From Acidiferrobacterales bacterium (GTDB lineage: Bacteria > Pseudomonadota > Gammaproteobacteria > Arenicellales > Poriferihabitantaceae), in the NCBI GenBank assembly GCA_019633985.1, contig JAHQWE010000135.1, positions 1-37,074 on the forward strand: a DNA stretch of 37,074 nt, read 5' to 3'. A program made the translations under genes and the position numbers. The notes under the pieces were generated by a model. That model searched no databases. It was given only the letters and a program-made list of their open reading frames with translations, and was not told the DNA's origin. This document shows, in pieces, positions 8,740 to 36,050 of the stretch. The first letter of the stretch is position 1. Each line of letters opens with the position of its first letter.

Positions 8740-8752
8740 CCCGGTTTCTTGT

Positions 8753-12139: not shown

Positions 12140-12329
12140 TTTTACCCCCTAGATAAGTATTTTGACGGCAAGTATAGCCACCTAAATCGATGTTGCAACG
12201 TGCAAACGTCACATCTTCTGACTTTCCGTGTAAAATAGCGCGTGGGGGAGCGTCTGTGGAACCGGCAATCATCGCAACTGGGAAGTTCAGTCGGTGTCAG
12301 ACGAAATCAACAAAATTCGAGACAATTCC

Positions 12330-14040: not shown

Positions 14041-15174
14041 ATGAACAAGCAATTCGAACGACCGGATAAGTCGCTGGATCAATTTGACCCCAACGCCGAA
14101 CAGTCATTCACAATGCCCGCACGGATCTATTGCGATCCTGATTTCCTGGAACAGGAAAAACGACAGGTGTTCTGGAAATCCTGGATTTATGCCGGACACA
14201 TTAGTGCGTTAAGAGAACCTGGCGATTACATTACCTTAGATCTGACTGGCCAAAGGCTCTTTGTAATCCGCCAGGCAGACGGCGAGCTCGGCGGTTTTTT
14301 TAACGTATGCCAACATCGCGGTCACTCGCTCCTCAAAGGTAGCGGGAAAGCCCATCGACTCATTGTTTGCCCTTATCATGGCTGGTCCTATGACCAGACC
14401 GGCAAACTGATAGCCGCCAACAACTGCGATCAGGTCGCCCAGTTTCGACGAGAGGATTTCAGTCTGCCTTCAATCCATGTCGATCAAATCGCCGGGTTTG
14501 TCTTTGTGAATCTTGACCCGCAGGCGAAGCCAATGCGAGAGGTCTATCCAGGTGCTGAAGATAAGCTGAGGGAATTTTGTTTGAAGCCTGAGACTCTCAT
14601 TGCCGACGAAAACGTCGATTTTGATATCAAGGGTAACTGGAAAAACGTGGGCGATAATCTACTAGAGTGCTATCACTGCTCCACCGCGCACAAAGCCTTC
14701 GTCGATTTAGTGGATATGAATACTTATAAAGTGGAAACTCATCGGTACTGGTCTATTCAGTATGGCACATGCAGGCCAAACAACACAGCTTATGCTTATG
14801 ATGGCGACCATGAGCGACAAACTTTTGTCACACTTTATCTCTGGCCCAATATGTCTTTCACGCAATTCCCGGGCACGAAAGGCCTCTCTGTTTTTGCGTT
14901 CTATCCAACTGGCGCCGAGGACACCCATCAGATTTTTGCCTATCATCGCCCGCAATCGGAACCCACAAGCGCGGAGAAAGCCGCATTGAAATATTTTGCT
15001 GATGTGCTTGGCCCGGAAGATGTGGATCTCGTTGAAGATGTGCAGAAAGGCTTACACTCTCTGGGCTACCATCAAGGTCGTATTATGGTGGATGCTAAGC
15101 GAAGTGAAATCAGCGAACACGCGCTACACCACTTTCAAAATCTGGTGATGTCAGAAATGACTGAGTTTATTTAG
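14041..15174 (+). CDS. Rieske (2Fe-2S) non-heme iron oxygenase alpha subunit (second paralog)
   Basis: Rieske motif CQHRGH...CPYHGW. Mononuclear-iron catalytic domain of about 377 aa. Confidence 0.85.
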   Translation: MNKQFERPDKSLDQFDPNAEQSFTMPARIYCDPDFLEQEKRQVFWKSWIYAGHISALREPGDYITLDLTGQRLFVIRQADGELGGFFNVCQHRGHSLLKGSGKAHRLIVCPYHGWSYDQTGKLIAANNCDQVAQFRREDFSLPSIHVDQIAGFVFVNLDPQAKPMREVYPGAEDKLREFCLKPETLIADENVDFDIKGNWKNVGDNLLECYHCSTAHKAFVDLVDMNTYKVETHRYWSIQYGTCRPNNTAYAYDGDHERQTFVTLYLWPNMSFTQFPGTKGLSVFAFYPTGAEDTHQIFAYHRPQSEPTSAEKAALKYFADVLGPEDVDLVEDVQKGLHSLGYHQGRIMVDAKRSEISEHALHHFQNLVMSEMTEFI

Positions 15175-18973: not shown

Positions 18974-19921
18974 TTAATTAATCCAGCCGTTTACCGTATC
19001 CATATTGGCTTCCACCCAGGCCTCTGCAACATCTGCAGGATCTTCACCGTCACGACCAATCTGTAAAATCCAGCCATTGACTACCGCTGGATCCAACTGG
19101 ATTTGCGACAGAAATTTCGCGGCTGCTGGATTTCGAGTTTCCAGCGATTTAGAGTAAGCGACATAGACATTCGCATCTTTGTTTTCACAATTGAAAGTGG
19201 ACGCTTCCAGCCAGTCTTCCTGGTCCAGTTTGACATCTTCACAACCTTCGGTCCGCGGTGACTCTGACAAGGGGCTTAGCTCGTAAGCCGCATGGATCCA
19301 CTCTGGTGTCCAGTAATAAAAAATAATTGGTTCTTCACCGGCGATAGCGCCTTTTAGCTGAGCAAGAAAAGTCGCCTGGGGAACAATTTCAGGCTCCCAT
19401 AATTCACCAAGGTCGTAACTCTTAAACTTGACCTGCCACATCTTGGTTGATTTCCAACCAGCGTCTCCAGCCCAGTACTCGCCTTTTCCGTTACCATCTT
19501 TATCAAACAAGGCGGCAATTTCCGGTTTTTTTAAGTCATCAAAGGAAGAGACTTTATCCGCCATATAAGAAGGTACATACATCATCTGCGTACCAGGATA
19601 GGGCTGATTGTGGGCAACAGACTTTGCGTCGTCGATGTACTTGTCCCAGATCGCTTGCTGGTTAGGCATCCACATATCCGTGTACACATCGACTGAACCA
19701 TCACCTTTATCCATACCTGCGGCAATTACTGCCTGTTCGGATAGACCATCGACTACCTCGGCTTCCGACCCCATCGGGCCGTTAATGACGGCGGCGATTA
19801 CGTGACCAATTGCTTTTGCGCCAGTCCAGCTCAAATCTGAGATCGCCACTTTTTCCTGTGCGTGTACGACACTAGTCGACACTATCAGCGCGGTGGCTAA
19901 CAGGGTTTTTTTCAAGATCAT
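18974..19921 (-). CDS. glycine betaine/proline betaine ABC transporter substrate-binding protein (ProX/OpuAC-like)
   Basis: Signal peptide MILKKTLLATALIVSTSVVHA, preceded by a GAGGA Shine-Dalgarno. ProX-like fold blocks throughout. The ORF track's upstream extension is unlikely. Confidence 0.85.
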   Translation of the reverse strand: MILKKTLLATALIVSTSVVHAQEKVAISDLSWTGAKAIGHVIAAVINGPMGSEAEVVDGLSEQAVIAAGMDKGDGSVDVYTDMWMPNQQAIWDKYIDDAKSVAHNQPYPGTQMMYVPSYMADKVSSFDDLKKPEIAALFDKDGNGKGEYWAGDAGWKSTKMWQVKFKSYDLGELWEPEIVPQATFLAQLKGAIAGEEPIIFYYWTPEWIHAAYELSPLSESPRTEGCEDVKLDQEDWLEASTFNCENKDANVYVAYSKSLETRNPAAAKFLSQIQLDPAVVNGWILQIGRDGEDPADVAEAWVEANMDTVNGWIN

Positions 19922-20013
19922 AATGAATTCCTCATGTTTTTGGTTTAGCAGTAATATCTGGTCAGAGCGACACCCCAACCCTTCAATCGTTTTAGTTTCT
20001 CTTGGATGATCAA

Positions 20014-21645
20014 TTAGCTTCCGCTACGGTTGGCGCGTTGCACGATTCGGTCGATCACCATGGCGATCAAGGCAATAGCAATACCAGCGAGCATGCCGCG
20101 TCCAACTTGACTCTGTCCCAACGCGTCAACAACGATAAAGCCCAATCCACCTGCCCCGATAATCGCGGCGATCACCGCCATAGACAGACTCATCATCACC
20201 ACCTGGTTTACGCCAGCCATGATGGAGGGCGTTGCCAGTGGCAATTCAACCCGCGTTAACAATTGGCGAGGGCTGGCACCGAATGCCAACGCCGCTTCCT
20301 TGGTTGATTCGGGAACCTGCTTGATTCCAAGAGCCGTTAGTCTGACCATGGGCGGCATGGAAAATATCACCGTTGCAAGAATGCCCGGCGGCTTACCAAT
20401 GGAGAAAAACGCCACAGCGGGCAACAGATAGACGAACGAGGGAATCGTCTGCATCACGTCTAAAATGGGGGTAACAATGGCGGAGCCGCGTCGCGATTTA
20501 CCAACCCATACTCCCAGTGGGAGACCAACCACAACGCAGATGATTGTCGAAGCGATCACGATTGATACCGTGCTCATCGCCGTCTGCCAAAACCCAAAAA
20601 TACCTAGATAGATCAAAGTAGCTGCTGTAAATATCGCGACTCTCGGCCCTGCAAAATGAAAGGCAATCAATAAAAACAGCCCGGCAGTAACCAACCACGG
20701 CGTACCGACAAATACCGCTTCGATGGCATTTAACAGCGTCCGCAACCACTTGGTAATTCCATCAAAGATATAGCCATAAAATGCTTTCGCATAATCAATT
20801 CGTTGATCGATCACCTCAGACAACCAGACGTTCAGATTGACGGGTCGCTTCGCAGTTGATTCTTTCACCACCATAGTTCTTGTGCCATCTTCCGCTCGCG
20901 GGAATGAGAATTGTGGAGGGCGTTTTAACCACACCACGGTAGGCACTTCAGAAATTGTCAAACAATCAAATCGGGATTTGAAATCGACCGGCTTTCCGTC
21001 CTGCATCGCCCGGGCGACCTTAATACATGCGCGTGCTTCAGGCGCTTCCTGGGTGGATCGATACAACGTTAGCGGTGCGACTAAAACAACAATTAAGGCT
21101 GCAACCATCCATCTGCTTTTACTGACGCCTGAGTTCACCTTTGGGTTGATTCGCCAGGCACTGTATTGGCGATAGTAAAATCGATCGGCGAGCCAACCGA
21201 TGAGTAGTCGACCAATCACAAACAATAATACGGCCGCAAGCAGGTGCAACATCGTCCAATTGGAAAATCGCTCGATTAGAAAGCTCTTATCCGCTTCTAT
21301 CGCTGCCGCCTTGGCGACCGAAAAACGATAAACCAGACCAAGGTTTGCCGCCGCCATCATGTCGGTGGCAAATCCAATCCAGAACAGTAACCAGTTGCCA
21401 CGCAATGCCGCCCAGACAAAGCTTCCCACCAACGCTGCTTTATTAAAATGTAAGAAGGGTAGCTTCGATTGTTGAATTTTTAAAAAGGTACGAGAGTAGT
21501 ACTCTTCGTTTTGTTCGGCGAAGGTTGCAAACGCACGATTGACCTCGCGGTCTGCTGCTCCAGAAGCTTGAGCCTCTTTTTGCGCAGCGGCGACCTCTGC
21601 AAGGCTTTCGGTCTCTTGAGTGGTTGACTCGGAAGATGTGCTCAT
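20014..21645 (-). CDS. glycine betaine/proline ABC transporter permease (ProW-like) with a long N-terminal extension
   Basis: Canonical ProW C-terminal half: PPMVRLTALGIKQVPESTKEAALAFGASPRQLLTRVELPLA... plus about 190 extra N-terminal residues. Confidence 0.9.
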   Translation of the reverse strand: MSTSSESTTQETESLAEVAAAQKEAQASGAADREVNRAFATFAEQNEEYYSRTFLKIQQSKLPFLHFNKAALVGSFVWAALRGNWLLFWIGFATDMMAAANLGLVYRFSVAKAAAIEADKSFLIERFSNWTMLHLLAAVLLFVIGRLLIGWLADRFYYRQYSAWRINPKVNSGVSKSRWMVAALIVVLVAPLTLYRSTQEAPEARACIKVARAMQDGKPVDFKSRFDCLTISEVPTVVWLKRPPQFSFPRAEDGTRTMVVKESTAKRPVNLNVWLSEVIDQRIDYAKAFYGYIFDGITKWLRTLLNAIEAVFVGTPWLVTAGLFLLIAFHFAGPRVAIFTAATLIYLGIFGFWQTAMSTVSIVIASTIICVVVGLPLGVWVGKSRRGSAIVTPILDVMQTIPSFVYLLPAVAFFSIGKPPGILATVIFSMPPMVRLTALGIKQVPESTKEAALAFGASPRQLLTRVELPLATPSIMAGVNQVVMMSLSMAVIAAIIGAGGLGFIVVDALGQSQVGRGMLAGIAIALIAMVIDRIVQRANRSGS

Positions 21646-21648
21646 TAC

Positions 21649-22749
21649 CTATTCCCCCTGGATACCGCGTAATAGTGCGTCTTTTGTGACAACGCCCACA
21701 AGCTTGCCATCCTCACGAATTGCTACAGGTTGCTCTCGATTCACCGCCATGCTGATTAATGAATCCAAATCAGCTTCAGGGGAAGCCTCGGGCCATGTTT
21801 CAGTGCCCTCTAGTGAATGCCCCTGTTGTGAGTACTGCTCGGGATCTTGCATCACCGTGTGAGCGAAGACTAATTTCAGTCGAGAAATGCCCTGCACGAA
21901 ATCCGCGACATAATCATCTGCTGGACTAGTGACGATATCTTCGGGTGTTCCAATTTGAACGATGACTCCGTCTTTCATAATCGCTATCCGCGACCCCATT
22001 CGGATGGCTTCATCAAGATCATGGGTGATAAATAAGGTTGTTTTTCCCATCACCGCTGAGAGCTCTAGAAACTCATCCTGCAAACCGCGCCGAATCAGTG
22101 GATCCAGTGCTGAGAACGGTTCATCCATTAACAATATCTCAGGATCTGCTGCCAGCGCTCGCGCCAACCCTACTCGTTGTTGCATACCGCCAGATAATTC
22201 TGCCGGCATTCGGTCTCCATAACCCTGCAAGCTCACGGTTTCAATAACTTTATCCGACAGCTGCATGCGGGTGAAGGCGTCAACATTTCTGAGCTCCAAC
22301 GCAAAGCCAATATTGTCTCGCACAGTGCGATGGGGGAGGAGCGCCATATTCTGGAATACCATGCCAATACGGTCGGCTCTCAATAGTCGTAATTCTTTGG
22401 CATTCAAACCGCCGACATCGACACCCCCTACCTTGATTTCTCCATGGGTCGGTTCGATGAGTCGGTTGATATGACGGACCAGGGTGGACTTTCCCGAGCC
22501 GGACAACCCCATAATGCAAAAAATCTCGCTCTCATGGACGTCAAACGAAACCTCTCTCACACCCACTACCGCCTCGAAACGATCCAGCACCTCTGCCTTG
22601 CTCAGGTTTTCCTTTCGAATTGCTTCCAGGGCTTCGGCGGACCGATCGCCAAATATTTTCCAAACATCTCGCACCTGAATGACAGGCGAGACATCAGGGG
22701 GAGCAGTTGCGTCTACGGTCATGGTGTTGTCTTTTCCAGACTGCATCAA
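21649..22749 (-). CDS. glycine betaine/proline ABC transporter ATP-binding protein (ProV-like) with tandem CBS domains
   Basis: Walker A GLSGSGKST, signature LSGGMQQRV, Walker B LLMDEPFSALD, and a C-terminal CBS pair. Confidence 0.92.
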   Translation of the reverse strand: MMQSGKDNTMTVDATAPPDVSPVIQVRDVWKIFGDRSAEALEAIRKENLSKAEVLDRFEAVVGVREVSFDVHESEIFCIMGLSGSGKSTLVRHINRLIEPTHGEIKVGGVDVGGLNAKELRLLRADRIGMVFQNMALLPHRTVRDNIGFALELRNVDAFTRMQLSDKVIETVSLQGYGDRMPAELSGGMQQRVGLARALAADPEILLMDEPFSALDPLIRRGLQDEFLELSAVMGKTTLFITHDLDEAIRMGSRIAIMKDGVIVQIGTPEDIVTSPADDYVADFVQGISRLKLVFAHTVMQDPEQYSQQGHSLEGTETWPEASPEADLDSLISMAVNREQPVAIREDGKLVGVVTKDALLRGIQGE

Positions 22750-23048: not shown

Positions 23049-23555
23049 CTAGCAGCGGTCGATGGACGCTAACTTGAGTAGATCTTCATACAGCGGGAAT
23101 ATATTATTTTCCAACGCAACAAAATAGCGCAGCAACCCGACATCAATCGCGCGCATTTCATGCAAAAGCGCTTCCTCCTGCCACTTCTCAAGATTATCAC
23201 CCATCTCCAAGAGTCTTTCTGAGGATCTCTCTACTGATTTCAGGGCTACCTGTATTTTTCTGAACTGTGAACTGGTTTTAAGTTCGACAACATAGTTGTC
23301 GAGCAGACGATAAAGCTCCACCTCCTCCATTTCAAGATACGCAATCAACCCTGCGCTAAAACCAAGAAAGTGTGACTTAAAACTTTCAAGGTCGTCGTTT
23401 TGTAGTGCGCCGGTTGCGATCATCCCCCTCTTTCTCGTGATGTAAAACTGCCTCTTTATTTTGTCAACGAGATCGACATCCAAGTGATCGAGCCGTTTAC
23501 TCGAAATATCAAACTGCGTCTCTGAACGCGTGTTGGAATGAGTTCCCAAAAACAC
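23049..23555 (-). CDS. hypothetical alpha-helical protein (paralogous to upstream ORF; GTG start immediately after the upstream TAA)
   Basis: No recognised domain. Shares a YRLLD(N/D)xV motif with the 23556-24131 product. Confidence 0.4.
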   Translation of the reverse strand: MFLGTHSNTRSETQFDISSKRLDHLDVDLVDKIKRQFYITRKRGMIATGALQNDDLESFKSHFLGFSAGLIAYLEMEEVELYRLLDNYVVELKTSSQFRKIQVALKSVERSSERLLEMGDNLEKWQEEALLHEMRAIDVGLLRYFVALENNIFPLYEDLLKLASIDRC

Positions 23556-24131
23556 TTACCCAGCTTGTGCGAAGCTCAATGCATCTGAATTTTCACCCAC
23601 ATCAGTATTCAGTAGATCATGGCAGCAGGCGTGCAGCGCCCGCCTTTCTCTCTCGTAATGTGTGGAAACCTGAAAATCAATTTCGTAAACGGCAGATTCA
23701 AAAAACTGACAGCTCACATCGTCGACTGATTGATACTTGGCGAGAAATTTACTGACGTTTCTGTTTAGTTCGTACGCGCCCTTCTCCAGATGGAGAAACG
23801 CAGTATCAGTCTTTTCATACTTAAACTGCTCCAAGTTCAAGTACATACCAACGCTTACTAACTTAAGGTGATTCTTCAGCGCGGTACGATACAAAATAAA
23901 TCGACCCTGAATGGTATGTAACTCTTCTGAAGCGATCGCGCGTGCCAAGCTAGAAAAACTGGAAGATAAAAAAGTCTTGCTTGCGACAATGTCATCCAGC
24001 AATCGATAAACGTTTTGGGCCGCGTTTAACGCATCACCTTTGTTTACTTCCTGCCACCCTGGCGAACGGAATTGAGGTTGTATGTACATCTTTTTTCTCG
24101 TTTTATAATTTGTGAAAATGGATAACTGCAA
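23556..24131 (-). CDS. hypothetical alpha-helical protein
   Basis: No recognised domain. Shares a YRLLDD motif with the downstream in-frame ORF. His-rich HxxxE-like spacing (HLEKG...HYERE...HACCHD), reminiscent of but not diagnostic for a hemerythrin-like fold. Confidence 0.45.
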   Translation of the reverse strand: MQLSIFTNYKTRKKMYIQPQFRSPGWQEVNKGDALNAAQNVYRLLDDIVASKTFLSSSFSSLARAIASEELHTIQGRFILYRTALKNHLKLVSVGMYLNLEQFKYEKTDTAFLHLEKGAYELNRNVSKFLAKYQSVDDVSCQFFESAVYEIDFQVSTHYERERRALHACCHDLLNTDVGENSDALSFAQAG

Positions 24132-24320: not shown

Positions 24321-24794
24321 TTATTTAAAAACAAGCACTCCACCATGTGCCCGACAGACAATCAATTCCGATTTTTTTTCTACCACTGATCGACTCACTC
24401 TTCTTTTTAATTTGTTCCAGATATCCATCGCCTGCATGGCATTGTCTTCAGCTACTGCGATAGCAATGACAGGAAGATTATCTGGAATATGATGGGAGAG
24501 AAGTCGACGGACTAGACGACCAAGCTGCTCTGCGTTTTTAAAATCACAGCCCTGGACTATCATTGATAGTCTGTTGTTTTGAACGTATACGCTAGCGCGT
24601 TCACTAACGTGTGCAGTAGAAGTCGCCATGGCGATTACCTCGCGCCAGTCTGTGCCTGAGTCAGGCACAGACTGGTGACGCGGATCAGAAACCGATCGGC
24701 AGATATGTACGATGGTAAATGGATAATTCGCCCCCAGTTGAATTGAATTAAGGAGCTTTAGGAATGCGCTGGCGGAAATGTTGTTGTTTTCCAA
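24321..24794 (-). CDS. hypothetical protein (157 aa) downstream of the two-component operon
   Basis: Open frame with an ATG start. No recognisable motif. Confidence 0.4.
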   Translation of the reverse strand: MENNNISASAFLKLLNSIQLGANYPFTIVHICRSVSDPRHQSVPDSGTDWREVIAMATSTAHVSERASVYVQNNRLSMIVQGCDFKNAEQLGRLVRRLLSHHIPDNLPVIAIAVAEDNAMQAMDIWNKLKRRVSRSVVEKKSELIVCRAHGGVLVFK

Positions 24795-24887: not shown

Positions 24888-24934
24888 GTGAAAAAAGAAA
24901 AATCCGTATGATTACCACCCGTAAGTCTACGGGT
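24888..24934 (-). terminator. intrinsic terminator after the response-regulator gene
   Basis: 7-bp stem ACCCGTA/TACGGGT with a 4-nt loop. On the minus strand it is followed by a U-run (GAAAAAAGAAAAA on plus). Confidence 0.5.
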
Positions 24935-24958
24935 TATGGATTCATAGGCAGAAGATGT

Positions 24959-25576
24959 TCAAGCGGAATGAATGTTACAGATTTTTGCGAGCTCGACCAG
25001 ATGAGTGATAGACGCCGCATCCATTTTTGACATTACCCGAGCACGATATTCATCGACGGTCCGATGGCTGATCTTTAGCTTACGCGCAATCTCTTTGTTC
25101 GACTGAGTTGCTACCCCTGCAACCAGTTCAGCCATAACCTGACGCTCGCGCTGGGTGAGCGTTTCGAACAATTGCAACGTATGTTGCTTAAGTTTTACCT
25201 GGTGCTGGGTGGCCTCATCTTTCGCTAACGCTTCCTTTAATCGATCCAGCAATGTATCCGTTGCGTAAGGTTTTTCCAAAAACTCGATGGCCCCACTTTT
25301 AATTGCATGTACGGAGGTTGGAATATCTCCATGACCGGTGACAAAAATTATGGGTATTTCCTGGTTGCGCTCGCCAAGTGCCGCCTGCACCTCCAAACCA
25401 GACATACCGGGCATGGCAATATCCAAAACCAAACAGCTCGGATGTACTTGTGAAAAGTTATCCAGAAAATCGTTTCCGCTCTCATACTCTTCGACCAGAT
25501 AGCCATGATGTGTCAGCGAGCGGGCCAGGCTTTTCCTGACTGCGCTGTCATCATCAACTACGTATACGGTATGCAC
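24959..25576 (-). CDS. two-component response regulator, FixJ/LuxR family (REC plus LuxR-type HTH)
   Basis: REC motifs VYVVDDD...LVLDIAMPGMSGLE...IIFVTGHGD. C-terminal LTQRERQVMAELVAGVATQSNKEIARKLKISHRTVDEYRARVMSKM. Confidence 0.92.
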   Translation of the reverse strand: MHTVYVVDDDSAVRKSLARSLTHHGYLVEEYESGNDFLDNFSQVHPSCLVLDIAMPGMSGLEVQAALGERNQEIPIIFVTGHGDIPTSVHAIKSGAIEFLEKPYATDTLLDRLKEALAKDEATQHQVKLKQHTLQLFETLTQRERQVMAELVAGVATQSNKEIARKLKISHRTVDEYRARVMSKMDAASITHLVELAKICNIHSA

Positions 25577-25580
25577 TGTT

Positions 25581-27164
25581 TTACTCCATTGCTGGCTTGT
25601 TTCTCACTGGAATTCGAATATGAAATGTTGTTCCTTTATTTTTTTCTGTCTCGCACTTAAGCGTACCACCGAGGTTCTCGACAATAGATCTACATATCGA
25701 CAAACCAAGTCCCATCCCCTTGGATTTGCCGGTAACGAACGGTTGAAAAAGATCTTTCATCACGTTCTCGGCAATTCCCGGCCCTGTATCCAAAACCGAA
25801 ACCAAAATAGTATTGGGCTTAATGTGTTGGGTACGAATGGTCACCAAACCCCGGTTGGTTTTTGCATCTGAGATCGACTCTATTGCATTTCTGCACAGGT
25901 TGACAAGCACTTGCTGCATTTGAATGGAGTCCAAAACGGTTTTCGGTAAATCTTGCGCTGGGAAAAAGTGTATGCCCACATTGGCTGCCCGTGCTTCAGG
26001 ACGGATAAGCTTTTCTGTAGAAACGATCAAACTATTGAGATCACAGAGAGTGATGTCACCAGGTTCTTTACGAATAAGATGGCGTAATCCACGAATGATT
26101 TCTCCTGCGCGCTGAGCTGAATCATTATTCTCATTGAGAATTTCTACGATCTCCAGATCAGGTGAATCTTTGCTTTTTTCAATAGAAATAGCAGTCTCAC
26201 AGTTATGACTGATGACGGTAAGAGGCTGATTCAATTCATGTGCCAAACCCGAAGCCATTTCCCCTAATGTGTTAAGTCGGGCCACATGGGCGAGTTCCAT
26301 TGATCGTTTTCTGTTTTCCTCCTCCAGTCTCTTCCTCGCACTGATATCATTTACGGTCGCCAAGACCACTCTCTTCTCCGGAAAATCAATCGGGATCAAA
26401 CTGATTTCCACAGGGAAAGCAGAGCCGTCTTTACGTATAGCAGAAAGTTCCTGTTCGATTCCCATTGGACGCACATTTCCATGCGCAAAAAAACCCTCCC
26501 TGTCCGCTGAGTGATGATTCCGCGTTTCTCCAGGCACCAAAGAATCTACATTGAGATCACACAATTCATCAGAAGTATATCCAAACAACTTCTCCATCAT
26601 ATCGTTGGCATATTCAATTTGGCCTTCTTTATTCACAATGACAATTCCGTCAGGAGCTTGTGCCAGAAAGGTACGAAGCTGACTCTCAGTTCTCTTGAGG
26701 TTTTCAGTGACAGTTTGCTGCGCCACAATCTCCGCCTGTAGTTTTGCGTTTAGTGCCTGTAGTTCTGCAGGAGATTTAAGTTCCGCCAGCTTCGGCAAAG
26801 TCGGCCATAATAGTGCCGCCGTGCCGGTAGAAATCAATGCGGTAAACCCTTTGGTGATTCCATGAATACCATAGCTGCCAGACCAAACCGTCCAGATTCC
26901 CATAAAGTGGGTCACTCCACAGGCGGCGATAAACAGCGAAAACATGATCATCATTGATCGAAACGGTAATAAAGGCCGCTGCCTGTAGAACAGATATAAC
27001 GTAATCGGAATCGAAAAATAGGCGATTGCAATGACACCGTCGGATAAAACGTTTAACCACAAGATATCTGGCCGCCAAAGGTAGCATTGACCATGGGGCA
27101 TATAGTTTGTCCAGAAGTTCAGATTGCCAGTTTCCATCGATATTTCCTCGGTCAGATATCGCAT
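25581..27164 (-). CDS. sensor histidine kinase with an N-terminal ethylene-binding-domain (ETR1-like, Cu-dependent) transmembrane sensor, PAS domain, and HisKA/HATPase
   Basis: The N-terminus aligns with the Arabidopsis ETR1 ethylene-binding domain: LSDGVIAIAYFSIPITLYLF...PFR...FIAACGVTHFMGIWTVW against ISDFFIAIAYFSIPLELIYF...PYR...FIVLCGATHLINLWTF. The Cu-ligand Cys-x3-His (ETR1 C65/H69) is conserved. A PAS domain follows (PDGIVIVNKEGQIEYAN), then an H-box ELAHVARLNTLGEMASGLAHELNQP, then HATPase N/G boxes. Sits 4 nt upstream of the FixJ-type regulator gene. Confidence 0.9.
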   Translation of the reverse strand: MRYLTEEISMETGNLNFWTNYMPHGQCYLWRPDILWLNVLSDGVIAIAYFSIPITLYLFYRQRPLLPFRSMMIMFSLFIAACGVTHFMGIWTVWSGSYGIHGITKGFTALISTGTAALLWPTLPKLAELKSPAELQALNAKLQAEIVAQQTVTENLKRTESQLRTFLAQAPDGIVIVNKEGQIEYANDMMEKLFGYTSDELCDLNVDSLVPGETRNHHSADREGFFAHGNVRPMGIEQELSAIRKDGSAFPVEISLIPIDFPEKRVVLATVNDISARKRLEEENRKRSMELAHVARLNTLGEMASGLAHELNQPLTVISHNCETAISIEKSKDSPDLEIVEILNENNDSAQRAGEIIRGLRHLIRKEPGDITLCDLNSLIVSTEKLIRPEARAANVGIHFFPAQDLPKTVLDSIQMQQVLVNLCRNAIESISDAKTNRGLVTIRTQHIKPNTILVSVLDTGPGIAENVMKDLFQPFVTGKSKGMGLGLSICRSIVENLGGTLKCETEKNKGTTFHIRIPVRNKPAME

Positions 27165-31007: not shown

Positions 31008-31919
31008 TCATTGATGGGGATTAACCAAAGATTGCAGGTTACAGATGTGTTCCCTGCGGACACCGCAGCAACCACCAATTACCTGCACACCACGTGCCAG
31101 CCATTTCTTGGAATTCAACTTGTAGTCTTCGGGCGATATGTTATCGTCAAACACTGCGTTGCCGCCTTCAAAGCGACAGGTATGGGCGTACACCCCAATT
31201 TTCCCCTGCCAATGTGTTTGCAAAATATCCAGGCACGCTTCGATATGCTCCACCTCTGTGTGCATAATATTGATCAGTGGAACATTCTTGTCTTTGATCA
31301 CACGCACCGCTTCGATCAGAGATTCACCACCCAACAGTCGCATTTCACCATTGATGGGTTTCAAGGAAAGGCCTGCCCATACCGGCAGTCCTGCGGCTGC
31401 TGCACCGTCAATACAGGCAATTAATTTGTCAATATGGCTCAACATCTCGAGTACGATCAGGTCGCATCCTCCCTCGGCCATGAGCATCGCCTGATCTTTA
31501 CTATTTTCCTCGAGCTCCTTCAGTGAAGGCGGGTTATCAGTCCAAATCCAGTGGGTGATTCCGCCAGCGATCAGCACCTCAGGTTTACCCTGATTTCGTC
31601 GGGCATCCTGTGCCAACTGCACCGCAGCCCTGGTCAGCGATTCGAATCGATCCTCTATCCCTGCCGATCTCATCGCATGTCGGGAAGAGCTGAATGTGTT
31701 GGTGATAATCATTTCAGCACCGCACTCAATGTATTCCTCATGGATAGTGCGGACGATCTCCGGATGGGACAACGCGGCGCCGCTGTTCCAAATATTCATC
31801 ACATGAGGAACGCCGCGTCTCTCGCACTCGGTTCCTGTGGCGCCGTCAATGAGTATGCGTTCTCCATTCTCAATTCGAGTAATTAACGCATTGTATGCAG
31901 CTGTCGGCATGTGACTCAA
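31008..31919 (-). CDS. homocysteine S-methyltransferase family protein (Zn-dependent; BHMT/MmuM-like)
   Basis: S-methyl_trans blocks ILIDGATGTE...IITNTF...GGCCG (zinc-binding Cys motif). Confidence 0.85.
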   Translation of the reverse strand: MSHMPTAAYNALITRIENGERILIDGATGTECERRGVPHVMNIWNSGAALSHPEIVRTIHEEYIECGAEMIITNTFSSSRHAMRSAGIEDRFESLTRAAVQLAQDARRNQGKPEVLIAGGITHWIWTDNPPSLKELEENSKDQAMLMAEGGCDLIVLEMLSHIDKLIACIDGAAAAGLPVWAGLSLKPINGEMRLLGGESLIEAVRVIKDKNVPLINIMHTEVEHIEACLDILQTHWQGKIGVYAHTCRFEGGNAVFDDNISPEDYKLNSKKWLARGVQVIGGCCGVRREHICNLQSLVNPHQ

Positions 31920-32066: not shown

Positions 32067-32642
32067 TTATTGCAGGCCGCGCACAAGCGCTGAGAGTTGG
32101 TCTACAGAAGCGCCAAAAGGCGATATTGCCTTGAACTGCCCGTCGCGATCCAAAACCACAATGTGAATAGAGTGATCAATTGTGTAATTCTCTCCTGCTG
32201 TTCGGCGGTATCGGATGTTGTACTGTTCGGCGACTCGAGCGATGTCTTCATCAGACCCCGTTAACCCAATGATATCTGGATGAAAGAACTGTACATACTG
32301 CCCAATTTTATCAGGGCTATCTCGTTGCGGATCCAGAGTGACAAAAACACCGGCGACCTGATCAGCGCCCACCTCTCGAATCGTCTTACCTATGGTATTT
32401 AATTCCAACGGACAAATATCGGGGCAATTGAGGAAGCCGAAATAAAGCAGGACTTTGCGACCGCGTAACTGTTCAAGTTCAAACAAGTCGCCGTGTTGAT
32501 CAGTGAGCGTAAAATCACCGCCCAGCTTTTTCTCTGCGTTCGCTGAAAAGAAAGGTGTGATGAGAAAAATGAAAATCAGCCAGAAGCGCGGTATCCATGC
32601 CGTCGCCACAAAGTACAAGCCAGTTGGTTCAGCTTGATTCAC
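32067..32642 (-). CDS. SCO1/SenC family copper chaperone (thioredoxin fold)
   Basis: CPDICP (CxxxC) motif plus a downstream His. N-terminal TM anchor. Overlaps the upstream gene by 4 nt (ATGA). Confidence 0.85.
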   Translation of the reverse strand: MNQAEPTGLYFVATAWIPRFWLIFIFLITPFFSANAEKKLGGDFTLTDQHGDLFELEQLRGRKVLLYFGFLNCPDICPLELNTIGKTIREVGADQVAGVFVTLDPQRDSPDKIGQYVQFFHPDIIGLTGSDEDIARVAEQYNIRYRRTAGENYTIDHSIHIVVLDRDGQFKAISPFGASVDQLSALVRGLQ

Positions 32643-34555
32643 TGCGCCTGATAGCCGGGATCGCCAATGGGAGCCGTAAAGGCATCTGATACCAGTATAT
32701 CGATATCGTGGCTGGTCAACGAATTCAAAAACGCTTCAATCGCATTCAATTCGCTTTCTGCGAGCCCCAATGGTCGAATTAGTGGGCTTTGCAATTCATG
32801 GGGCACACCACCCTGGTTATAGAATTCGAGAACTTCCCTTAACGTCCCAAATTCACCGTTGTGCATGTATGGGGCGGTCAACGCGATATTTCTGAGCGTT
32901 GGGGTTCTGAACTTCCAGCGGTCCGCGGGGTTTTCTGTGACCTCATATTGACCAACATCTGATGGTTTCTTTTCTCCGACGGTTGCAATGTATTCCGGGT
33001 CAACGTCTAGAAACACGCCAGGGGCAAGGGTGATGCGTTTGGCAATTTCATTTTTCTGAATGGAGTTCTTGTAACCCAGACCGGTGTTGTGAAGCAGGTT
33101 ATCACTAAACAGAGCCTGGTTATTCTGCACCAGGTGACAGCCAGAGCAACCTGCCTTGCCATCAAACAATTCGAAACCTTGTTTTGCTTCTGCACTCATC
33201 GCGTTCGGCTGATTGTCATATAACCAGCGATCAAACGGGGAATCTGCGGCGATCAACGTTCTTTGATAACTCGCCAGGGCCTGCCCTAGATTCTCCATTC
33301 CAACTTTTTCCCCATCAAATGCCTCTTCAAATAGGCCGTCGTAGTCTGCAAAGGAACGAATTTTTTTCAACACATATCCCACAGAAGGATTTGCCATTTC
33401 ATTCCTGGCAAGCAACGGGCTCCATACCTGTTGTTCCAGATTCTCTTCCCGGCCATCATGAAACAAGGTCGACAAATATCCAACGTTGTATAAGGTTGGT
33501 GAATTCCTTCTGACAGATCGGCCCTCAACACCAACGGCGGTTGAAATCTCATTGCTGGTAAAACCCTGCTCGGGGATATGACACATCGCACAGGAAAAGG
33601 TGTCGTTAATCGATAGCCTCCTGTCAAAAAACAGTTTCCGACCCAGCTCTATTTTTTTCTGCGTTAGCGGATTATTTTCAGGAACGGGGAGTTCAGGTAA
33701 TCCATTCACTTTCCTCTGAGCCAACTTAAACAAATCTGCCTTGACCCCCAACCGACTTTCTAATGCCAAGCTTTTCGTCGTATAACTCTTTGACTCATAA
33801 CCTTGTTTGTAATCCCCAGGTTGAGAAAGTGTGCTGCCCGCAAGTTGCATCTGCGGCTGATCAGATTCTCCCTCGAGCATCAGTGTTTTGACATCTGCAA
33901 TTAGTAAATCCGCATGCAAAAAACTGACGCTGTAGATATTTCGTATAGTGAGGGATTCGTCTATCAAGAAAACTTTGAGCAGATGAGACAACTCTACAGT
34001 TTCCTCACCATCGCTCACGATAAACTGTCGCTGCACATCCTGATCGTAGTCAATCAAAATCGGTGCAAGCTCTGTGATCGAATCCGTCGTTAGAAAATGC
34101 CAACTCCCCGCACTGCCAGCATATTTAAAATTGTCTGCGTAAAGTCGCATGACTTCAGGGGTGTCAACTTCAGGATCAAAACTTAAACTCACAAGCTGAA
34201 GCTGTTTAGATAGCGCTTCATCCGCTTCCATTGCAGATTTGATCTTGTAAAACACATAGGAAGACAGAGGGCAACCGTTGATATCGTTGCAGCTGCTGTA
34301 CATAAAACTGAGCAGCGTCAGCTTGCCAGAAAACACCTGATGTAAAGTGGTCTCGCCGCCGTTAGAATCCAGTACCCTGCCATCAGGTGCAACGCCAATA
34401 TTTGACAGATCATAACTGCCGGGGGTCGGAGGAGCGTAATCCAAAGCGCCATACCCTATTGCAGACTGCTGGGCGAAAGCGCTTGAACAAATTGCGATAA
34501 GACCTAGGCAAAGCCTGATCTTAGCTATGCAGCTTTTCAGAATGAATTGGTGCAT
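32639..34555 (-). CDS. fusion protein: N-terminal SCO1/SenC-like domain plus C-terminal di-heme cytochrome c peroxidase/MauG-like domain
   Basis: Signal peptide. A thioredoxin-like N-terminal half (~230 aa) resembling SCO/SenC but with Cys spacing CNDINGC. Two CXXCH heme motifs (CAMCH, CSGCH) lie in a CCP/MauG-type C-terminal half (~330 aa). Confidence 0.8.
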   Translation of the reverse strand: MHQFILKSCIAKIRLCLGLIAICSSAFAQQSAIGYGALDYAPPTPGSYDLSNIGVAPDGRVLDSNGGETTLHQVFSGKLTLLSFMYSSCNDINGCPLSSYVFYKIKSAMEADEALSKQLQLVSLSFDPEVDTPEVMRLYADNFKYAGSAGSWHFLTTDSITELAPILIDYDQDVQRQFIVSDGEETVELSHLLKVFLIDESLTIRNIYSVSFLHADLLIADVKTLMLEGESDQPQMQLAGSTLSQPGDYKQGYESKSYTTKSLALESRLGVKADLFKLAQRKVNGLPELPVPENNPLTQKKIELGRKLFFDRRLSINDTFSCAMCHIPEQGFTSNEISTAVGVEGRSVRRNSPTLYNVGYLSTLFHDGREENLEQQVWSPLLARNEMANPSVGYVLKKIRSFADYDGLFEEAFDGEKVGMENLGQALASYQRTLIAADSPFDRWLYDNQPNAMSAEAKQGFELFDGKAGCSGCHLVQNNQALFSDNLLHNTGLGYKNSIQKNEIAKRITLAPGVFLDVDPEYIATVGEKKPSDVGQYEVTENPADRWKFRTPTLRNIALTAPYMHNGEFGTLREVLEFYNQGGVPHELQSPLIRPLGLAESELNAIEAFLNSLTSHDIDILVSDAFTAPIGDPGYQAQ

Positions 34556-34608
34556 ATCGACTTTTAGACCAATGAAGTGTGCTGGCTTTGTGTGAGACCA
34601 ACACGAGT

Positions 34609-34635
34609 TGAAGTGCCCTGATTCAGGGCACTTCA
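34609..34635. repeat. 27-nt near-perfect palindrome (TGAAGTGCCCTGATTCAGGGCACTTCA) between the SBP56 gene and the SCO-MauG gene
   Basis: Seen directly. An intra-operon hairpin without a U-tract. Candidate attenuator, RNA-stability element or operator. Confidence 0.5.
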
Positions 34636-34649
34636 GTCTGCCGTGACGG

Positions 34650-36050
34650 CTAGTCGGTCACGCTGGTTGCAGCCAGGTGTTTTTGATCATCCAGAATAGA
34701 TGAATTGGCGTACAGAGAGTAAGCACCAAATCGCATTTGATGTGAACGCCCCAGTTTCTCGGCATAAAAATCGATAGCGAACTCTTCTTTCAGTTCCTTA
34801 CCGTCCCAGGTATAGGCTTTGAAATACTGCTCATCCGCATCGTCCTTTTTGTCCCAGTTCGCCAGCAAAGAACTCGTATAGTACTGCCGCTTACCATCCC
34901 AGCTGCCAGAGACCATGTTGATTTGGCTACCGATTACCTTCTCATAAACCTGCTTCGGGTTCTCCGGATCGCTCATATCAAAGAAACGGGTTTTTCCATC
35001 GCTGAAGGTGTTCACAAAGAAACCAGAATCATCCGACAGAATCGAAAAGTCTACTGGCAAAGGTACTTTAGATGGATCACCAATCGTACCTATGGACTTC
35101 GCCTGCCATTCACCGGCACTGTCTTCATAGATCATCCAGATTTGTGAAGTCAGTGCTGTGGTCGTCAAACACCAGTTATGATTTGGCTGCCATGCACAGC
35201 GAAGCTCCAGTGGCGCTCCCGGTACGTCGAGCACCTTCTTAGGCTTACGCGCGTGCAAATCCCAGACGACGACAGTATTGCCGAAGCGCTTCATTGCTTC
35301 AGCGTCTCCCAGCATCTGCCCAAAATCCATCATGTAGTTTGACCATCCGGTAAAGGAGGAAGTTACCATGATGTTCTTGCGCGGCAGCGCACGAACGTCA
35401 TAACCATAGCCATCTGCGAATTGTCCACCCTTCACAGCGCCCTGCAGGTTTTCATCGGTAGGCATCCAGTGGGTTGCAACGTATTCACCTGCATTGGTGT
35501 ATTCCACCATCGCAGTGCGACCACCGTTGTCTTTATTGTTCGACAACCCTGTAATCATCATCCGACCGGGCAAGGCGTATGTGGTATGTGGTCCAACGAC
35601 TCCACCACTGTCAGAGACAAACGTGTCGATCGTCTGGCTCAAGGTTGGTTTTGCCGGATCTGTATGAACGTCAAATATAAAAATCTTGTTGGTATCCAGA
35701 CCGCCAGCCCAAAGGTACTTTCGATCATCGGTGAACCCAGAGTGATGGGCTTCATTGCGGCCGCCAACGGATAAGCTGTTGATCACAGTACCATAAGAAG
35801 CGGAAGATGGATTGACATCGATCGTCACCAGCTTGTCTTGCCCGTCTCCGAGGCCCTCTACACCGAGAGTCCAAACGTAGACAAAATCTTCTTGCCCCGT
35901 GATCTTCGCCATATACGGCGACATGCAGGTTTCATCTGCATATGCAGTGTTGGAAATCCCAACAGCGGCGGCAGACAGTCCAAATAATCCTGCGAGAATA
36001 GTGCGCCCTAGGAGAGCGCTAGGTGGTTTTCTAAAGGTGTTCAATTTCAT
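34650..36050 (-). CDS. mtoX: selenium-binding protein (SBP56) family, putative Cu-dependent methanethiol oxidase
   Basis: Clear homology to SELENBP1/SBP56: TIDVNPSSASYGTVINSLSVGGRNEAHHSGFT against human [34 protein letters not shown], and YYTSSLLANWDKKDD against ITTSLYSAWDKQFYPD. Signal peptide present. Encoded directly upstream of SCO1-MauG and SCO1 genes, which is the published mtoX genomic signature. Confidence 0.8.
   Translation of the reverse strand: MKLNTFRKPPSALLGRTILAGLFGLSAAAVGISNTAYADETCMSPYMAKITGQEDFVYVWTLGVEGLGDGQDKLVTIDVNPSSASYGTVINSLSVGGRNEAHHSGFTDDRKYLWAGGLDTNKIFIFDVHTDPAKPTLSQTIDTFVSDSGGVVGPHTTYALPGRMMITGLSNNKDNGGRTAMVEYTNAGEYVATHWMPTDENLQGAVKGGQFADGYGYDVRALPRKNIMVTSSFTGWSNYMMDFGQMLGDAEAMKRFGNTVVVWDLHARKPKKVLDVPGAPLELRCAWQPNHNWCLTTTALTSQIWMIYEDSAGEWQAKSIGTIGDPSKVPLPVDFSILSDDSGFFVNTFSDGKTRFFDMSDPENPKQVYEKVIGSQINMVSGSWDGKRQYYTSSLLANWDKKDDADEQYFKAYTWDGKELKEEFAIDFYAEKLGRSHQMRFGAYSLYANSSILDDQKHLAATSVTD

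What the first reader, a model, noticed from the sequence alone, without database searches (positions are those of the whole stretch)
25581..27164. Plant-type ethylene-binding domain on a gammaproteobacterial PAS histidine kinase paired with a FixJ regulator
The N-terminal transmembrane sensor matches the Arabidopsis ETR1 ethylene-binding domain block by block: SD..IAIAYFSIP, PFR/PYR, and the copper-ligand CG(V/A)TH. Bacterial EBD proteins are known mainly from cyanobacteria, with a few predicted in proteobacteria. Here it is wired as EBD-PAS-HisKA-HATPase, then a FixJ/LuxR regulator, with three uncharacterised ORFs (24321-24794, 23049-24131) immediately downstream. That suggests an ethylene- or other small Cu-binding-ligand-responsive regulon of unknown output.
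Basis: partly seen in the sequence, partly recalled or inferred. Interest (0 to 1): 0.72.

Follow-up and report, generated by a model that had tools for sequence, protein, structure and literature searches.

The report
Bacterial ethylene-receptor-type two-component system
This gene pair in an uncultured gammaproteobacterium encodes a membrane sensor kinase with the copper-dependent ethylene-binding domain of plant ETR1, plus a DNA-binding partner; it is a real but fairly ordinary member of a widespread bacterial family, one member of which was shown to bind ethylene in 2025.

Summary
ORF 25581-27164 (-) matches Pfam ETR1_N over the whole domain model (E 1.3e-34), followed by PAS, HisKA and HATPase_c. 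Four bases downstream lies a REC+LuxR-HTH (FixJ/NarL-type) response regulator.

All seven ETR1 residues needed for ethylene binding are kept: D42, Y49, I52, P53, I79, C82 and H86. So is the signalling lysine, K105. An AlphaFold model (pLDDT 89) gives three long helices, with Cys and His on helix 2.

It is not rare. The protein is collinear with AzoEtr1 of Azospirillum brasilense (30% identity over the full length), an EBD-PAS-kinase shown experimentally to bind ethylene. At least 587 species genomes carry this bacterial type of the domain; about half of the 80 best matches are Gammaproteobacteria.

What differs from AzoEtr1 is the partner: a DNA-binding regulator, conserved next to the closest orthologues, in place of a bare receiver.

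The three downstream ORFs are orphans. A terminator-like hairpin separates them from the operon, and they are not conserved beside the orthologues, so the proposed regulon is unsupported.

Verdict: new member of a known kind. Ethylene as the ligand is inferred, not shown.

The parts
25581..27164 (-). Sensor histidine kinase ORF: 527 aa from the first ATG, probably 518 aa starting at ATG 27137 (M10). Architecture is EBD-PAS-HisKA-HATPase_c.
   Evidence: A 100% identical 518-aa protein, P0001, lies on an independent Logan contig (L001, 99.94% DNA identity).
27075..27101 (-). N-terminal motif M22-PHGQCYLW-30 (H24, C27, W30). It lies upstream of the Pfam domain boundary and is conserved in the bacterial family, including AzoEtr1 (LPHGVCLFW).
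   Evidence: It forms a short helix at residues 24-27 in the AlphaFold model. MAFFT places C27 opposite an N-terminal Cys of ETR1: C4, apparently C6. Its role is unknown.
26781..27065 (-). Ethylene-binding domain (Pfam ETR1_N, residues 34-128). Three predicted helices at about 32-62, 69-95 and 99-127. D42, Y49, I52 and P53 are on helix 1; I79, C82 and H86 on helix 2; K105, T108 and A116 on helix 3.
   Evidence: Pfam E 1.3e-34. BLASTP against the ETR1 EBD: 37% identity, E 1e-20. Three-way alignment with AzoEtr1 and ETR1. AlphaFold model, pLDDT 89.1, pTM 0.77. Hydropathy profile.
26340..26681 (-). PAS domain (residues about 162-275). H218 aligns with the proximal haem histidine of FixL and EcDos. 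Q238 sits where FixL has its distal Arg.
26061..26267 (-). HisKA dimerisation and phospho-acceptor domain (residues 300-368). H309 lies in the motif LAHELNQPL.
   Evidence: H309 invariant in 24 homologues; closest solved kinase core is that of B. japonicum FixL.
25602..25931 (-). HATPase_c catalytic domain (residues 412-521). N422, N426, G461, G463, F473, G483, G485 and G487 are invariant among homologues.
24959..25576 (-). Response regulator, 205 aa. REC (residues 4-113; D8, D9, D52, T80, K102 in place) plus a GerE/LuxR-type HTH (139-197). It starts 4 nt after the kinase stop codon.
   Evidence: Orthologues of 58-60% identity lie directly after the kinase orthologues in L082, L083 and L085.
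24891..24948 (-). Terminator-like element just after the regulator's stop codon: an extended hairpin (24904-24948) followed by A-U5-C-U6 (24891-24902).
   Evidence: RNA fold -16 kcal/mol, z -2.85, with 1 of 200 shuffles folding as well. The simple terminator scan did not flag it.
24321..24794 (-). Orphan ORF 'orf157' (public gene calls use a 102-aa version). It is adjacent to the system; whether it belongs to it is unproven.
   Evidence: No Pfam or NCBIfam hit. Only a self hit in 5.8 billion proteins. Only self plus spurious hits in 1.84 billion representatives. Residues 83-146 weakly match the ORF at the same position in the closest orthologue's locus (tblastn E 1.5e-4, local database only). 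Codon score is best in this frame but below the range of the window's confident genes.
23049..24131 (-). Orphan ORFs 'orf191' (23556-24131) and 'orf168' (23049-23555), in the same frame and split by one TAA. They are adjacent to the system; whether they belong to it is unproven.
   Evidence: Codon scores are typical of genes in this frame. No homologues were found. The single-sequence model of orf168 is a four-helix bundle (pLDDT 67) with no significant PDB match.

Best explanation
This is a two-gene operon for an ethylene-receptor-type two-component system, of the same kind as Azospirillum AzoEtr1.

The kinase sits in the membrane through a three-helix domain. By homology with ETR1, this domain holds Cu(I) through C82 and H86, with D42 assisting, and binds ethylene at that copper (inferred). 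Ligand occupancy would be passed to helix 3 through the D42-K105 polar bridge, then through a helical linker and the PAS domain to the kinase core (inferred).

The kinase autophosphorylates on H309 and transfers the phosphate to D52 of the regulator. The regulator's LuxR-type helix-turn-helix then changes transcription of targets that remain unknown (inferred from intact catalytic motifs).

By analogy with ETR1, and with what is proposed for SynEtr1 and AzoEtr1, ethylene most likely lowers kinase output.

Shown here: the domains, the residues, the predicted topology, and the conserved kinase-regulator pairing. Inferred: copper, ethylene, the sign of the signal, and the regulon.
For: Full-length Pfam ETR1_N match, E 1.3e-34. 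BLASTP to the ETR1 EBD: 37% identity, E 1e-20.

All seven residues reported as essential for ethylene binding in ETR1 are present, plus K91, T94 and A102 equivalents. The seven are D25, Y32, I35, P36, I62, C65 and H69, taken from PMC6586836, PMC8879215 and PMC11819568 together with my recollection of Wang et al. 2006. They are invariant or nearly so in 82 aligned EBDs, and D42, I52, C82 and H86 are invariant in 24 homologues.

The AlphaFold model has pLDDT 89 and three long helices, with C82 and H86 on helix 2.

The protein is collinear with AzoEtr1 over its full length (30% identity, E 1e-70). I recovered the AzoEtr1 sequence from A. brasilense Sp7 plasmid p1. It matches the paper's primers and its numbering of D35, C75, H79 and K98. 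It has the same Pfam architecture and binds 14C-ethylene (PMC11819568).

The kinase boxes and the receiver residues are intact. The two genes are 4 nt apart. REC+GerE regulators of 58-60% identity directly follow all three orthologues examined.
Against: No binding data exist for this protein or for any gammaproteobacterial member.

The organism is an uncultured MAG. Its gene content (betaine, methylamine and methanethiol metabolism, NhaA) suggests a saline, non-plant habitat, so the source of ethylene is conjectural.

The PAS domain's nearest solved relatives are haem-PAS oxygen sensors, and H218 aligns with their proximal His, so a second input is possible.

The sign of signalling is only by analogy. 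No copper-delivery gene linked to the system is visible on this 37-kb contig.
Confidence: 0.7

Rival explanations
1. The domain binds Cu(I), but the physiological signal is not ethylene. It could be another small ligand of Cu(I), such as other alkenes or CO, or copper or redox status itself. 'Ethylene receptor' would then be a misnomer in this non-plant-associated bacterium.
For: The contig's gene content points to a saline, free-living lifestyle. The same type of domain is found in many marine Alteromonadales, Bdellovibrionota, Myxococcota and Verrucomicrobiota, most of which have no obvious plant link.
Against: Every residue known to be needed for ethylene binding is retained, and these residues are almost invariant across the family. 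Every member tested so far (ETR1, SynEtr1, AzoEtr1) binds ethylene (PMC11819568, PMC10266040). Ethylene is formed photochemically in seawater, according to references cited in PMC6682694.
Confidence: 0.18
2. The PAS domain is the main sensor: a FixL-like haem domain sensing O2, CO or redox state. The transmembrane domain would be only an anchor or a secondary input.
For: The best PDB sequence matches of the PAS region are haem-PAS domains: RmFixL 1d06 (E 2.3e-12), EcDos/DosP and BjFixL. H218 aligns with their proximal His. The kinase core is closest to that of FixL. Many other EBD kinases keep both the FixL His and the distal Arg in their first PAS domain.
Against: The distal Arg is Q238, and EcDos Met95 is I236. 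The closest orthologues lack the His altogether. The FixL equivalog score is 247.9 against a cut-off of 850. A mere anchor would not keep D42, C82, H86 and K105 invariant.
Confidence: 0.07
3. The three downstream ORFs (24321-24794 and 23049-24131) are the dedicated output of the system.
For: They lie on the same strand immediately downstream. Their codon usage is best in the annotated frames. Residues 83-146 of orf157 weakly resemble the ORF in the same position after the regulator in the closest orthologue's locus (E 1.5e-4 in a small local database).
Against: They have no true homologues in very large protein collections. They are absent from the other orthologous loci and from 80 related genomic loci. 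A terminator-like hairpin plus U-tract follows the regulator gene. The region's GC is 0.43-0.45, against about 0.48-0.50 around it. The neighbours of the orthologues differ from locus to locus.
Confidence: 0.1

Closest known systems
AzoEtr1 / AzoRR(etr1) of Azospirillum brasilense Sp7 (PMC11819568)
   Same: The architecture is collinear: three-helix EBD, PAS, HisKA, HATPase_c, in 525 aa against 518-527 aa. Identity is 30% over the full length and about 41-43% in the EBD. Both share the N-terminal PHGxC..W motif and the same seven ethylene-binding residues plus the helix-3 Lys. In both, the response-regulator gene lies immediately downstream on the same strand.
   Different: AzoEtr1's partner is a 135-aa stand-alone receiver with no output domain (PMC11819568). 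Here the partner is a 205-aa REC+LuxR-HTH transcription factor. The host is an uncultured gammaproteobacterium with marine-type gene content, not a root-associated alphaproteobacterium. The PAS domains belong to different subtypes: PAS_4 scores best in AzoEtr1, PAS_9 with a FixL-like His here.
Arabidopsis ETR1 ethylene-binding domain (Pfam PF25487 ETR1_N)
   Same: The three-helix transmembrane domain is 37% identical. D25, Y32, I35, P36, I62, C65, H69, K91, T94 and A102 all have equivalents.
   Different: ETR1 continues with GAF, a kinase and a receiver, and signals mainly through CTR1 independently of phosphotransfer. Here the domain is followed by PAS and a canonical kinase with a cognate regulator. 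The ETR1 sequence I used was recalled from memory; its numbering agrees with the published allele positions.
FixL/FixJ oxygen-sensing two-component system
   Same: The PAS-HisKA-HATPase_c core is most similar to FixL: NCBIfam FixL is the top model, and the best PDB matches are FixL-kinase chimeras. The regulator's best model is FixJ. The proximal His position is occupied by H218.
   Different: Both scores fall below the curated equivalog cut-offs (247.9 against 850; 214.6 against 255). The distal Arg is replaced by Q238. An ethylene-binding transmembrane domain is present, which is not part of the FixL definition.
SynEtr1 (slr1212) / slr1213 of Synechocystis sp. PCC 6803
   Same: It is a bacterial EBD-containing histidine kinase that signals by phosphotransfer to a DNA-binding response regulator (as described in PMC11819568).
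   Different: SynEtr1 also carries a light-sensing module, and its output is a small RNA. I did not have its sequence, so no direct comparison was made.

Membership tests
Ethylene-binding domain (Pfam ETR1_N, PF25487) | Significant profile match covering the whole domain | tested here: met
   E 1.3e-34, 118.8 bits against a cut-off of 27; model positions 2-96 of 97.
Ethylene-binding domain (Pfam ETR1_N, PF25487) | Three transmembrane helices, with the Cu ligands Cys65 and His69 on helix 2 | tested here: met
   AlphaFold model (pLDDT 89.1) has helices at about 32-62, 69-95 and 99-127; C82 and H86 lie in the second. Hydropathy shows two strong peaks and a weaker third.
Ethylene-binding domain (Pfam ETR1_N, PF25487) | The seven residues required for ethylene binding in ETR1 (D25, Y32, I35, P36, I62, C65, H69) and the D25-K91 bridge | tested here: met
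   D42, Y49, I52, P53, I79, C82, H86 and K105. They are near-invariant in 82 EBDs. Residue roles are taken from PMC6586836, PMC8879215, PMC10266040 and PMC11819568.
Ethylene-binding domain (Pfam ETR1_N, PF25487) | Cu(I)-dependent, saturable, high-affinity ethylene binding | not testable with these tools
   This needs a 14C-ethylene binding assay and a Cu(I) titration.
Ethylene-binding domain (Pfam ETR1_N, PF25487) | N-terminal cysteines forming a disulfide-linked dimer (ETR1 C4 and C6) | tested here: inconclusive
   C27 aligns with an N-terminal Cys of ETR1 in MAFFT, but the region is short and gapped. Several close homologues lack the Cys.
AzoEtr1-type bacterial ethylene-receptor two-component system | Collinear EBD-PAS-HisKA-HATPase_c kinase homologous over its full length | tested here: met
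   30% identity across residues 19-527 against 12-518, E 1e-70. The Pfam architecture is the same.
AzoEtr1-type bacterial ethylene-receptor two-component system | Cognate response regulator encoded immediately downstream | tested here: met
   The gap is 4 nt. The pairing is conserved in three orthologous loci. The regulator type differs, however: REC+GerE here, REC only in Azospirillum.
AzoEtr1-type bacterial ethylene-receptor two-component system | Ethylene-dependent physiological response | not testable with these tools
   The organism is an uncultured MAG.
FixL (haem-PAS oxygen sensor kinase) | NCBIfam equivalog score | tested here: not met
   247.9 bits against a cut-off of 850. The match covers only residues 145-521.
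FixL (haem-PAS oxygen sensor kinase) | Proximal haem His and distal Arg in the PAS domain | tested here: not met
   H218 aligns with RmFixL H194 and EcDos H77, but the distal Arg position is Q238. The closest orthologues lack the His. Haem binding as such is not excluded.
FixJ (NarL/FixJ-family response regulator) | REC plus LuxR-type HTH, and the NCBIfam FixJ equivalog score | tested here: inconclusive
   The architecture is met (Response_reg E 3.2e-28; GerE E 2.3e-17). FixJ is the best model but scores 214.6 against a cut-off of 255. The protein is FixJ-like, not a FixJ equivalog.
Catalytically competent HisKA-type histidine kinase | Phospho-acceptor His and the N, G1, F and G2 boxes | tested here: met
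   H309, N422, N426, G461, G463, F473, G483, G485 and G487 are invariant among 24 homologues.

The most novel reading that the evidence does not exclude
The family may be a tandem gas sensor. In this reading, a Cu(I) ethylene-binding membrane domain (with an extra conserved His/Cys motif, PHGxC, ahead of helix 1) is coupled to a FixL/DosP-like haem-PAS domain. Ethylene and O2/CO/redox signals would then be integrated into one transcriptional output, through a FixJ-type regulator, in free-living marine bacteria with no plant partner. The window's protein keeps the proximal His (H218) but not the distal Arg. Many Alteromonadales and some alphaproteobacterial EBD kinases keep both.
Probability: 0.15. 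Interest if true: 0.55.

Novelty: new member of a known kind. Interest (0 to 1): 0.3.

Why it matters
Experimental work on ethylene perception outside plants covers Synechocystis, Geitlerinema and Azospirillum, plus some fungi. This locus extends the family to an uncultured, apparently marine gammaproteobacterium.

It also shows a sub-clade in which the receptor is wired to a DNA-binding FixJ/NarL-type regulator. That would make the regulon directly mappable, for example by DAP-seq. AzoEtr1's bare receiver does not allow this.

It supports the view that ethylene, which is formed photochemically and biologically in water, could be a general environmental cue for bacteria. But it does not change the concept: the domain family, its spread among bacteria and the EBD-PAS-kinase architecture are already described.

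Tried and rejected
- **Exact look-up of the 527-aa protein.** It found nothing. The 518-aa form is on record, which supports M10 as the start.
- **Genome scan with a divergent 18-sequence EBD alignment.** A closer 6-sequence alignment worked.
- **Downstream ORFs.** Pfam and NCBIfam gave no hits, even at E up to 10. tblastn against 85 loci gave one weak hit for orf157. The word-indexed search of 5.8 billion proteins gave only the self hit for orf157 and nothing at all for a fused orf191+orf168 query. Full HMMER against 1.84 billion representatives gave only self plus eukaryotic zinc-finger and low-complexity proteins, which I judged spurious.
- **My visual impressions of the ORFs.** orf157 looked like a degenerate GGDEF fold, and orf191/orf168 like hemerythrin-type (HHE) four-helix bundles. 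Neither could be substantiated. The orf168 model is a generic four-helix bundle (pLDDT 67) with no Foldseek PDB hit at E <= 0.001; the DcrH hemerythrin-like domain appears only at E about 0.3.
- **Window against the Logan contig L001.** Only 8 differences in 12.4 kb, too few for any dN/dS test.
- **Fold search of the EBD model.** The AlphaFold database library was unavailable. By sequence, PDB holds no solved EBD relative.
- **Simple promoter and terminator scan.** It gave no more sites than shuffled sequence and missed the post-regulator hairpin, which a direct fold revealed.
- **Literature.** The review of non-plant ethylene receptors (Small Methods 2020) is not held. No paper in the held library combines ethylene receptors with Gammaproteobacteria.
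- **FixL/FixJ membership.** Considered and rejected on the curated cut-offs and the missing distal Arg.
Full report
**Observation**

The ORF at 25581-27164 lies on the minus strand and encodes 527 aa.

Pfam places ETR1_N (PF25487, 'Ethylene receptor 1-like, N-terminal domain') on residues 34-128. The match covers model positions 2-96 of 97, at E 1.3e-34 and 118.8 bits against a gathering score of 27. PAS_9 (171-275), HisKA (300-368) and HATPase_c (412-521) follow.

Four bases after the stop codon begins a 205-aa protein with a receiver domain and a GerE/LuxR helix-turn-helix. Its best NCBIfam model is FixJ, at 214.6 bits, below the 255-bit equivalog cut-off.

The true start of the kinase is probably M10 (ATG at 27137, 518 aa). 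A GAGGA lies 8-9 nt upstream of it, and nothing comparable precedes M1. The homologues start at the equivalent position, and the public gene calls give 518 aa. Residue numbers below count from M1.

**Source**

Exact look-ups show that the window is a complete 37,074-bp contig of an NCBI metagenome-assembled genome. It is labelled 'Acidiferrobacterales bacterium', and the regulator is MBX2870195.1. The order belongs to Gammaproteobacteria.

A 99.94% identical stretch occurs on an independent Logan assembly.

The rest of the contig encodes:
- an OpuA-type betaine ABC transporter;
- an MttB-family methyltransferase;
- Rieske oxygenases;
- a homocysteine S-methyltransferase;
- NhaA;
- an SBP56 (methanethiol-oxidase-type) gene with SCO1/SenC and MauG-like genes.

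I read this content as that of a saline, free-living organism. That is inference.

**Is it an ethylene-binding domain?**

BLASTP against the first 141 residues of Arabidopsis ETR1 gives 37% identity over 95 residues, E 1e-20. I supplied that ETR1 sequence from memory. Its numbering reproduces the published allele positions C4, C6, D25, A31, Y32, I62, C65, H69, K91 and A102.

Seven ETR1 residues are reported as essential for ethylene binding, and all have identical counterparts here:

| ETR1 | This protein |
|---|---|
| D25 | D42 |
| Y32 | Y49 |
| I35 | I52 |
| P36 | P53 |
| I62 | I79 |
| C65 | C82 |
| H69 | H86 |

The evidence for these roles comes partly from the held papers. PMC6586836 covers C65, H69, I35, P36 and I62. 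PMC8879215 covers Y32, I62, C65 and H69. PMC11819568 covers D25 and C65. The complete list of seven is my recollection of Wang et al. 2006.

K91 is proposed to bridge to D25 and to carry the signal into helix 3 (PMC10266040); its counterpart here is K105. T94 and A102 also have identical counterparts.

In an alignment of 82 EBDs (79 genomic loci, the window, AzoEtr1 and ETR1), these positions are invariant or nearly so.

An AlphaFold model of residues 17-135, built on 18 homologues, has mean pLDDT 89.1 and pTM 0.77. It shows three long helices, at about 32-62, 69-95 and 99-127. D42 lies on the first, C82 and H86 on the second, and K105 on the third.

No solved structure of any EBD relative exists in the PDB by sequence search.

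**How unusual is it?**

PMC11819568 (2025) describes AzoEtr1 of Azospirillum brasilense. It is a 525-aa protein with a three-helix EBD, a PAS domain and a histidine kinase, and a response-regulator gene lies just downstream. Its first 130 residues bind 14C-ethylene, and it controls biofilm formation and root colonisation.

I recovered the gene from Sp7 plasmid p1 (L086:3962-5539). The translation begins MFGGVEAF, as the paper's forward primer encodes. It reproduces the paper's D35, C75, H79 and K98.

The window's kinase aligns with AzoEtr1 end to end at 30% identity, E 1e-70. Both have the same Pfam architecture.

Both also share a motif ahead of helix 1 that lies outside the Pfam model: MPHGQCYLWRPDIL here, LPHGVCLFWRPEIL in AzoEtr1.

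It returned 587 confirmed relatives. By my count of the record titles, about 39 of the 80 best are Gammaproteobacteria. These include Glaciecola, Catenovulum, Paraglaciecola, Pseudoalteromonas, Alteromonas, Bowmanella, Thalassotalea, Psychrosphaera, Allohahella, Saccharospirillum, Ketobacter, Granulosicoccaceae, Steroidobacteraceae and Thiomargarita. The rest are spread over Oligoflexales/Bdellovibrionota, Myxococcota, Verrucomicrobiota, Acidobacteriota, Bacteroidota and cyanobacteria.

The proteins carrying the domain range from about 380 to 1,500 aa. PMC10266040 had already compared 1,221 EBDs from eukaryotes and prokaryotes.

**What is specific to this clade?**

The nearest relatives in 5.8 billion proteins are only 41-54% identical. 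All come from metagenomes or MAGs.

In the three orthologous loci I examined, a 206-208-aa REC+GerE gene follows the kinase directly. It either overlaps the kinase gene or lies 2-4 nt away. The kinases are 50-54% identical to the window's, and the regulators 58-60%.

A Granulosicoccaceae MAG pairs a PAS-less EBD kinase with a 46%-identical regulator.

So the sensor and the FixJ/NarL-type transcription factor form a conserved pair. This is the main difference from AzoEtr1, whose partner is a 135-aa receiver without an output domain (PMC11819568).

**The kinase core and the PAS domain**

H309 (in LAHELNQPL) and the N, G1, F and G2 box residues are invariant in 24 homologues. The regulator has D8, D9, D52, T80 and K102 in place.

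The closest solved kinase cores are FixL-derived (8a7f and 4gcz, E about 1e-48).

The best PDB sequence matches of the PAS region are haem-binding PAS domains. These are RmFixL 1d06 (E 2.3e-12), EcDos/DosP and BjFixL. H218 aligns with their proximal histidine.

The position of FixL's distal arginine is Q238, and that of EcDos Met95 is I236. The closest orthologues have Ile or Leu in place of the His. The FixL equivalog score is 247.9 against a cut-off of 850.

I therefore do not file this protein as FixL, and I regard haem binding here as possible but unsupported.

In passing, many other EBD kinases keep both the FixL histidine and the arginine in their first PAS domain. They include several Alteromonadales and three alphaproteobacterial proteins with the full HDGYL...RIIGIGR signature.

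**The three downstream ORFs**

All three score best in their annotated frames with a codon model trained on the window's confident genes. orf191 and orf168 score within the normal range, and orf157 below it.

orf191 and orf168 share one frame and are split by a single TAA.

None of the three has a Pfam or NCBIfam hit. orf157 finds only itself in 5.8 billion proteins. In 1.84 billion representatives it finds only itself plus spurious eukaryotic hits. A fused orf191+orf168 query finds nothing.

Among 85 related loci, the only signal is a weak match of orf157 residues 83-146. It is to the 182-aa ORF that occupies the same position after the regulator in the closest orthologue's locus. The tblastn E-value of 1.5e-4 applies to a small local database only.

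The single-sequence model of orf168 is a four-helix bundle (pLDDT 67) with no significant PDB match.

The region's GC is lower than its surroundings.

The RNA just after the regulator's stop codon folds into an extended hairpin followed by A-U5-C-U6. The fold is -16 kcal/mol, z -2.85, which looks like an intrinsic terminator.

The downstream neighbours of the orthologous pairs differ from locus to locus. The proposal that these ORFs are the system's output is therefore unsupported, though it is not excluded for orf157.

**Mechanism**

Shown here:
- the domains and their order;
- conservation of all ligand-binding and signalling residues;
- the predicted three-helix topology;
- intact catalytic and phospho-acceptor residues;
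- a conserved, probably translationally coupled, kinase-regulator operon.

Inferred from ETR1, SynEtr1 and AzoEtr1:
- the domain holds Cu(I) on C82 and H86, with D42 assisting, and ethylene binds that copper;
- the D42-K105 bridge passes the change to helix 3, and on through the linker and PAS domain to the kinase;
- phosphate moves from H309 to D52;
- the regulator alters transcription.

Ethylene inhibits ETR1 autophosphorylation and is proposed to do the same in SynEtr1 and AzoEtr1 (PMC11819568). My best guess is therefore that ethylene lowers regulator phosphorylation.

A plausible source of ethylene in water is photochemical alkene formation from dissolved organic carbon, according to references cited in PMC6682694.

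**Verdict**

This is a real, well-supported member of the bacterial ethylene-receptor family. It shares the AzoEtr1 architecture but has a transcription-factor partner, and it sits in an uncultured gammaproteobacterium.

It is a new member of a known kind. Its interest is modest, and lies mainly in being a tractable route to a regulon and an example from a host with no plant association.

Noticed in passing
L007, L008, L011, L012, L014, L021, L030, L031, L039, L040, L080, L002, L009 (first PAS after the EBD); proteins P0038, P0047, P0067; window residues H218 and Q238 (about 26451-26513): In many EBD kinases, the PAS domain next to the EBD keeps both the FixL proximal His and the distal Arg. 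Three alphaproteobacterial proteins have the full FixL haem-PAS signature (HDGYL...RIIGIGR). This suggests Cu(I)-EBD plus haem-PAS tandem gas sensors. The window keeps only the His.
   Followed up: partly
window 27075-27101 (-), residues 22-30: The conserved motif PHGxC..W (H24, C27, W30) lies ahead of helix 1, outside the Pfam ETR1_N boundaries, and is shared with AzoEtr1. It could be a dimerisation cysteine (compare ETR1 C4 and C6) or an extra copper-handling site. Its invariance across the 80 scanned loci is partly by construction, because the scan patterns were drawn from this motif.
   Followed up: partly
window 32067-36050 (-): An SBP56 (methanethiol-oxidase-type selenium-binding family) gene lies next to a SCO1/SenC-MauG fusion and a second SCO1/SenC gene. 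This looks like an mtoX-like cluster with its own copper chaperones. These are the only copper-handling genes on the contig, and they are more plausibly tied to SBP56 than to the ethylene-binding domain.
   Followed up: no
window 5243-6817 (+), 8732-9988 (+), 14041-15174 (+), 18974-22749 (-), 31008-31919 (-): These are betaine and methylated-amine handling genes: an MttB-family methyltransferase, two Rieske oxygenase alpha subunits, an OpuA-type ABC transporter and a homocysteine S-methyltransferase. They point to a marine or saline osmolyte-degrading lifestyle.
   Followed up: no
window 23556-23558 (-): A single in-frame TAA separates orf191 from orf168, and both halves score as coding in that frame. 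They could be two adjacent small genes or one gene of about 360 aa that has been interrupted. The same stop is present in the independent Logan contig L001.
   Followed up: partly
window 12294-13901 (+): A 535-aa protein with an N-terminal caspase-like Peptidase_C14 domain (E 1.7e-36).
   Followed up: no
window 856-2055 (-), 2113-3288 (-), 3646-3719 (-): An RtcB RNA ligase gene and an SPFH/Band 7 gene lie close to a tRNA-Met gene. The first 1 kb of the contig has markedly lower GC (0.39).
   Followed up: no
window 15270-16808 (-): A 512-aa ORF with typical codon usage but no Pfam hit at E <= 1e-5. The Logan annotation lists only a weak Spermine_synth hit.
   Followed up: no
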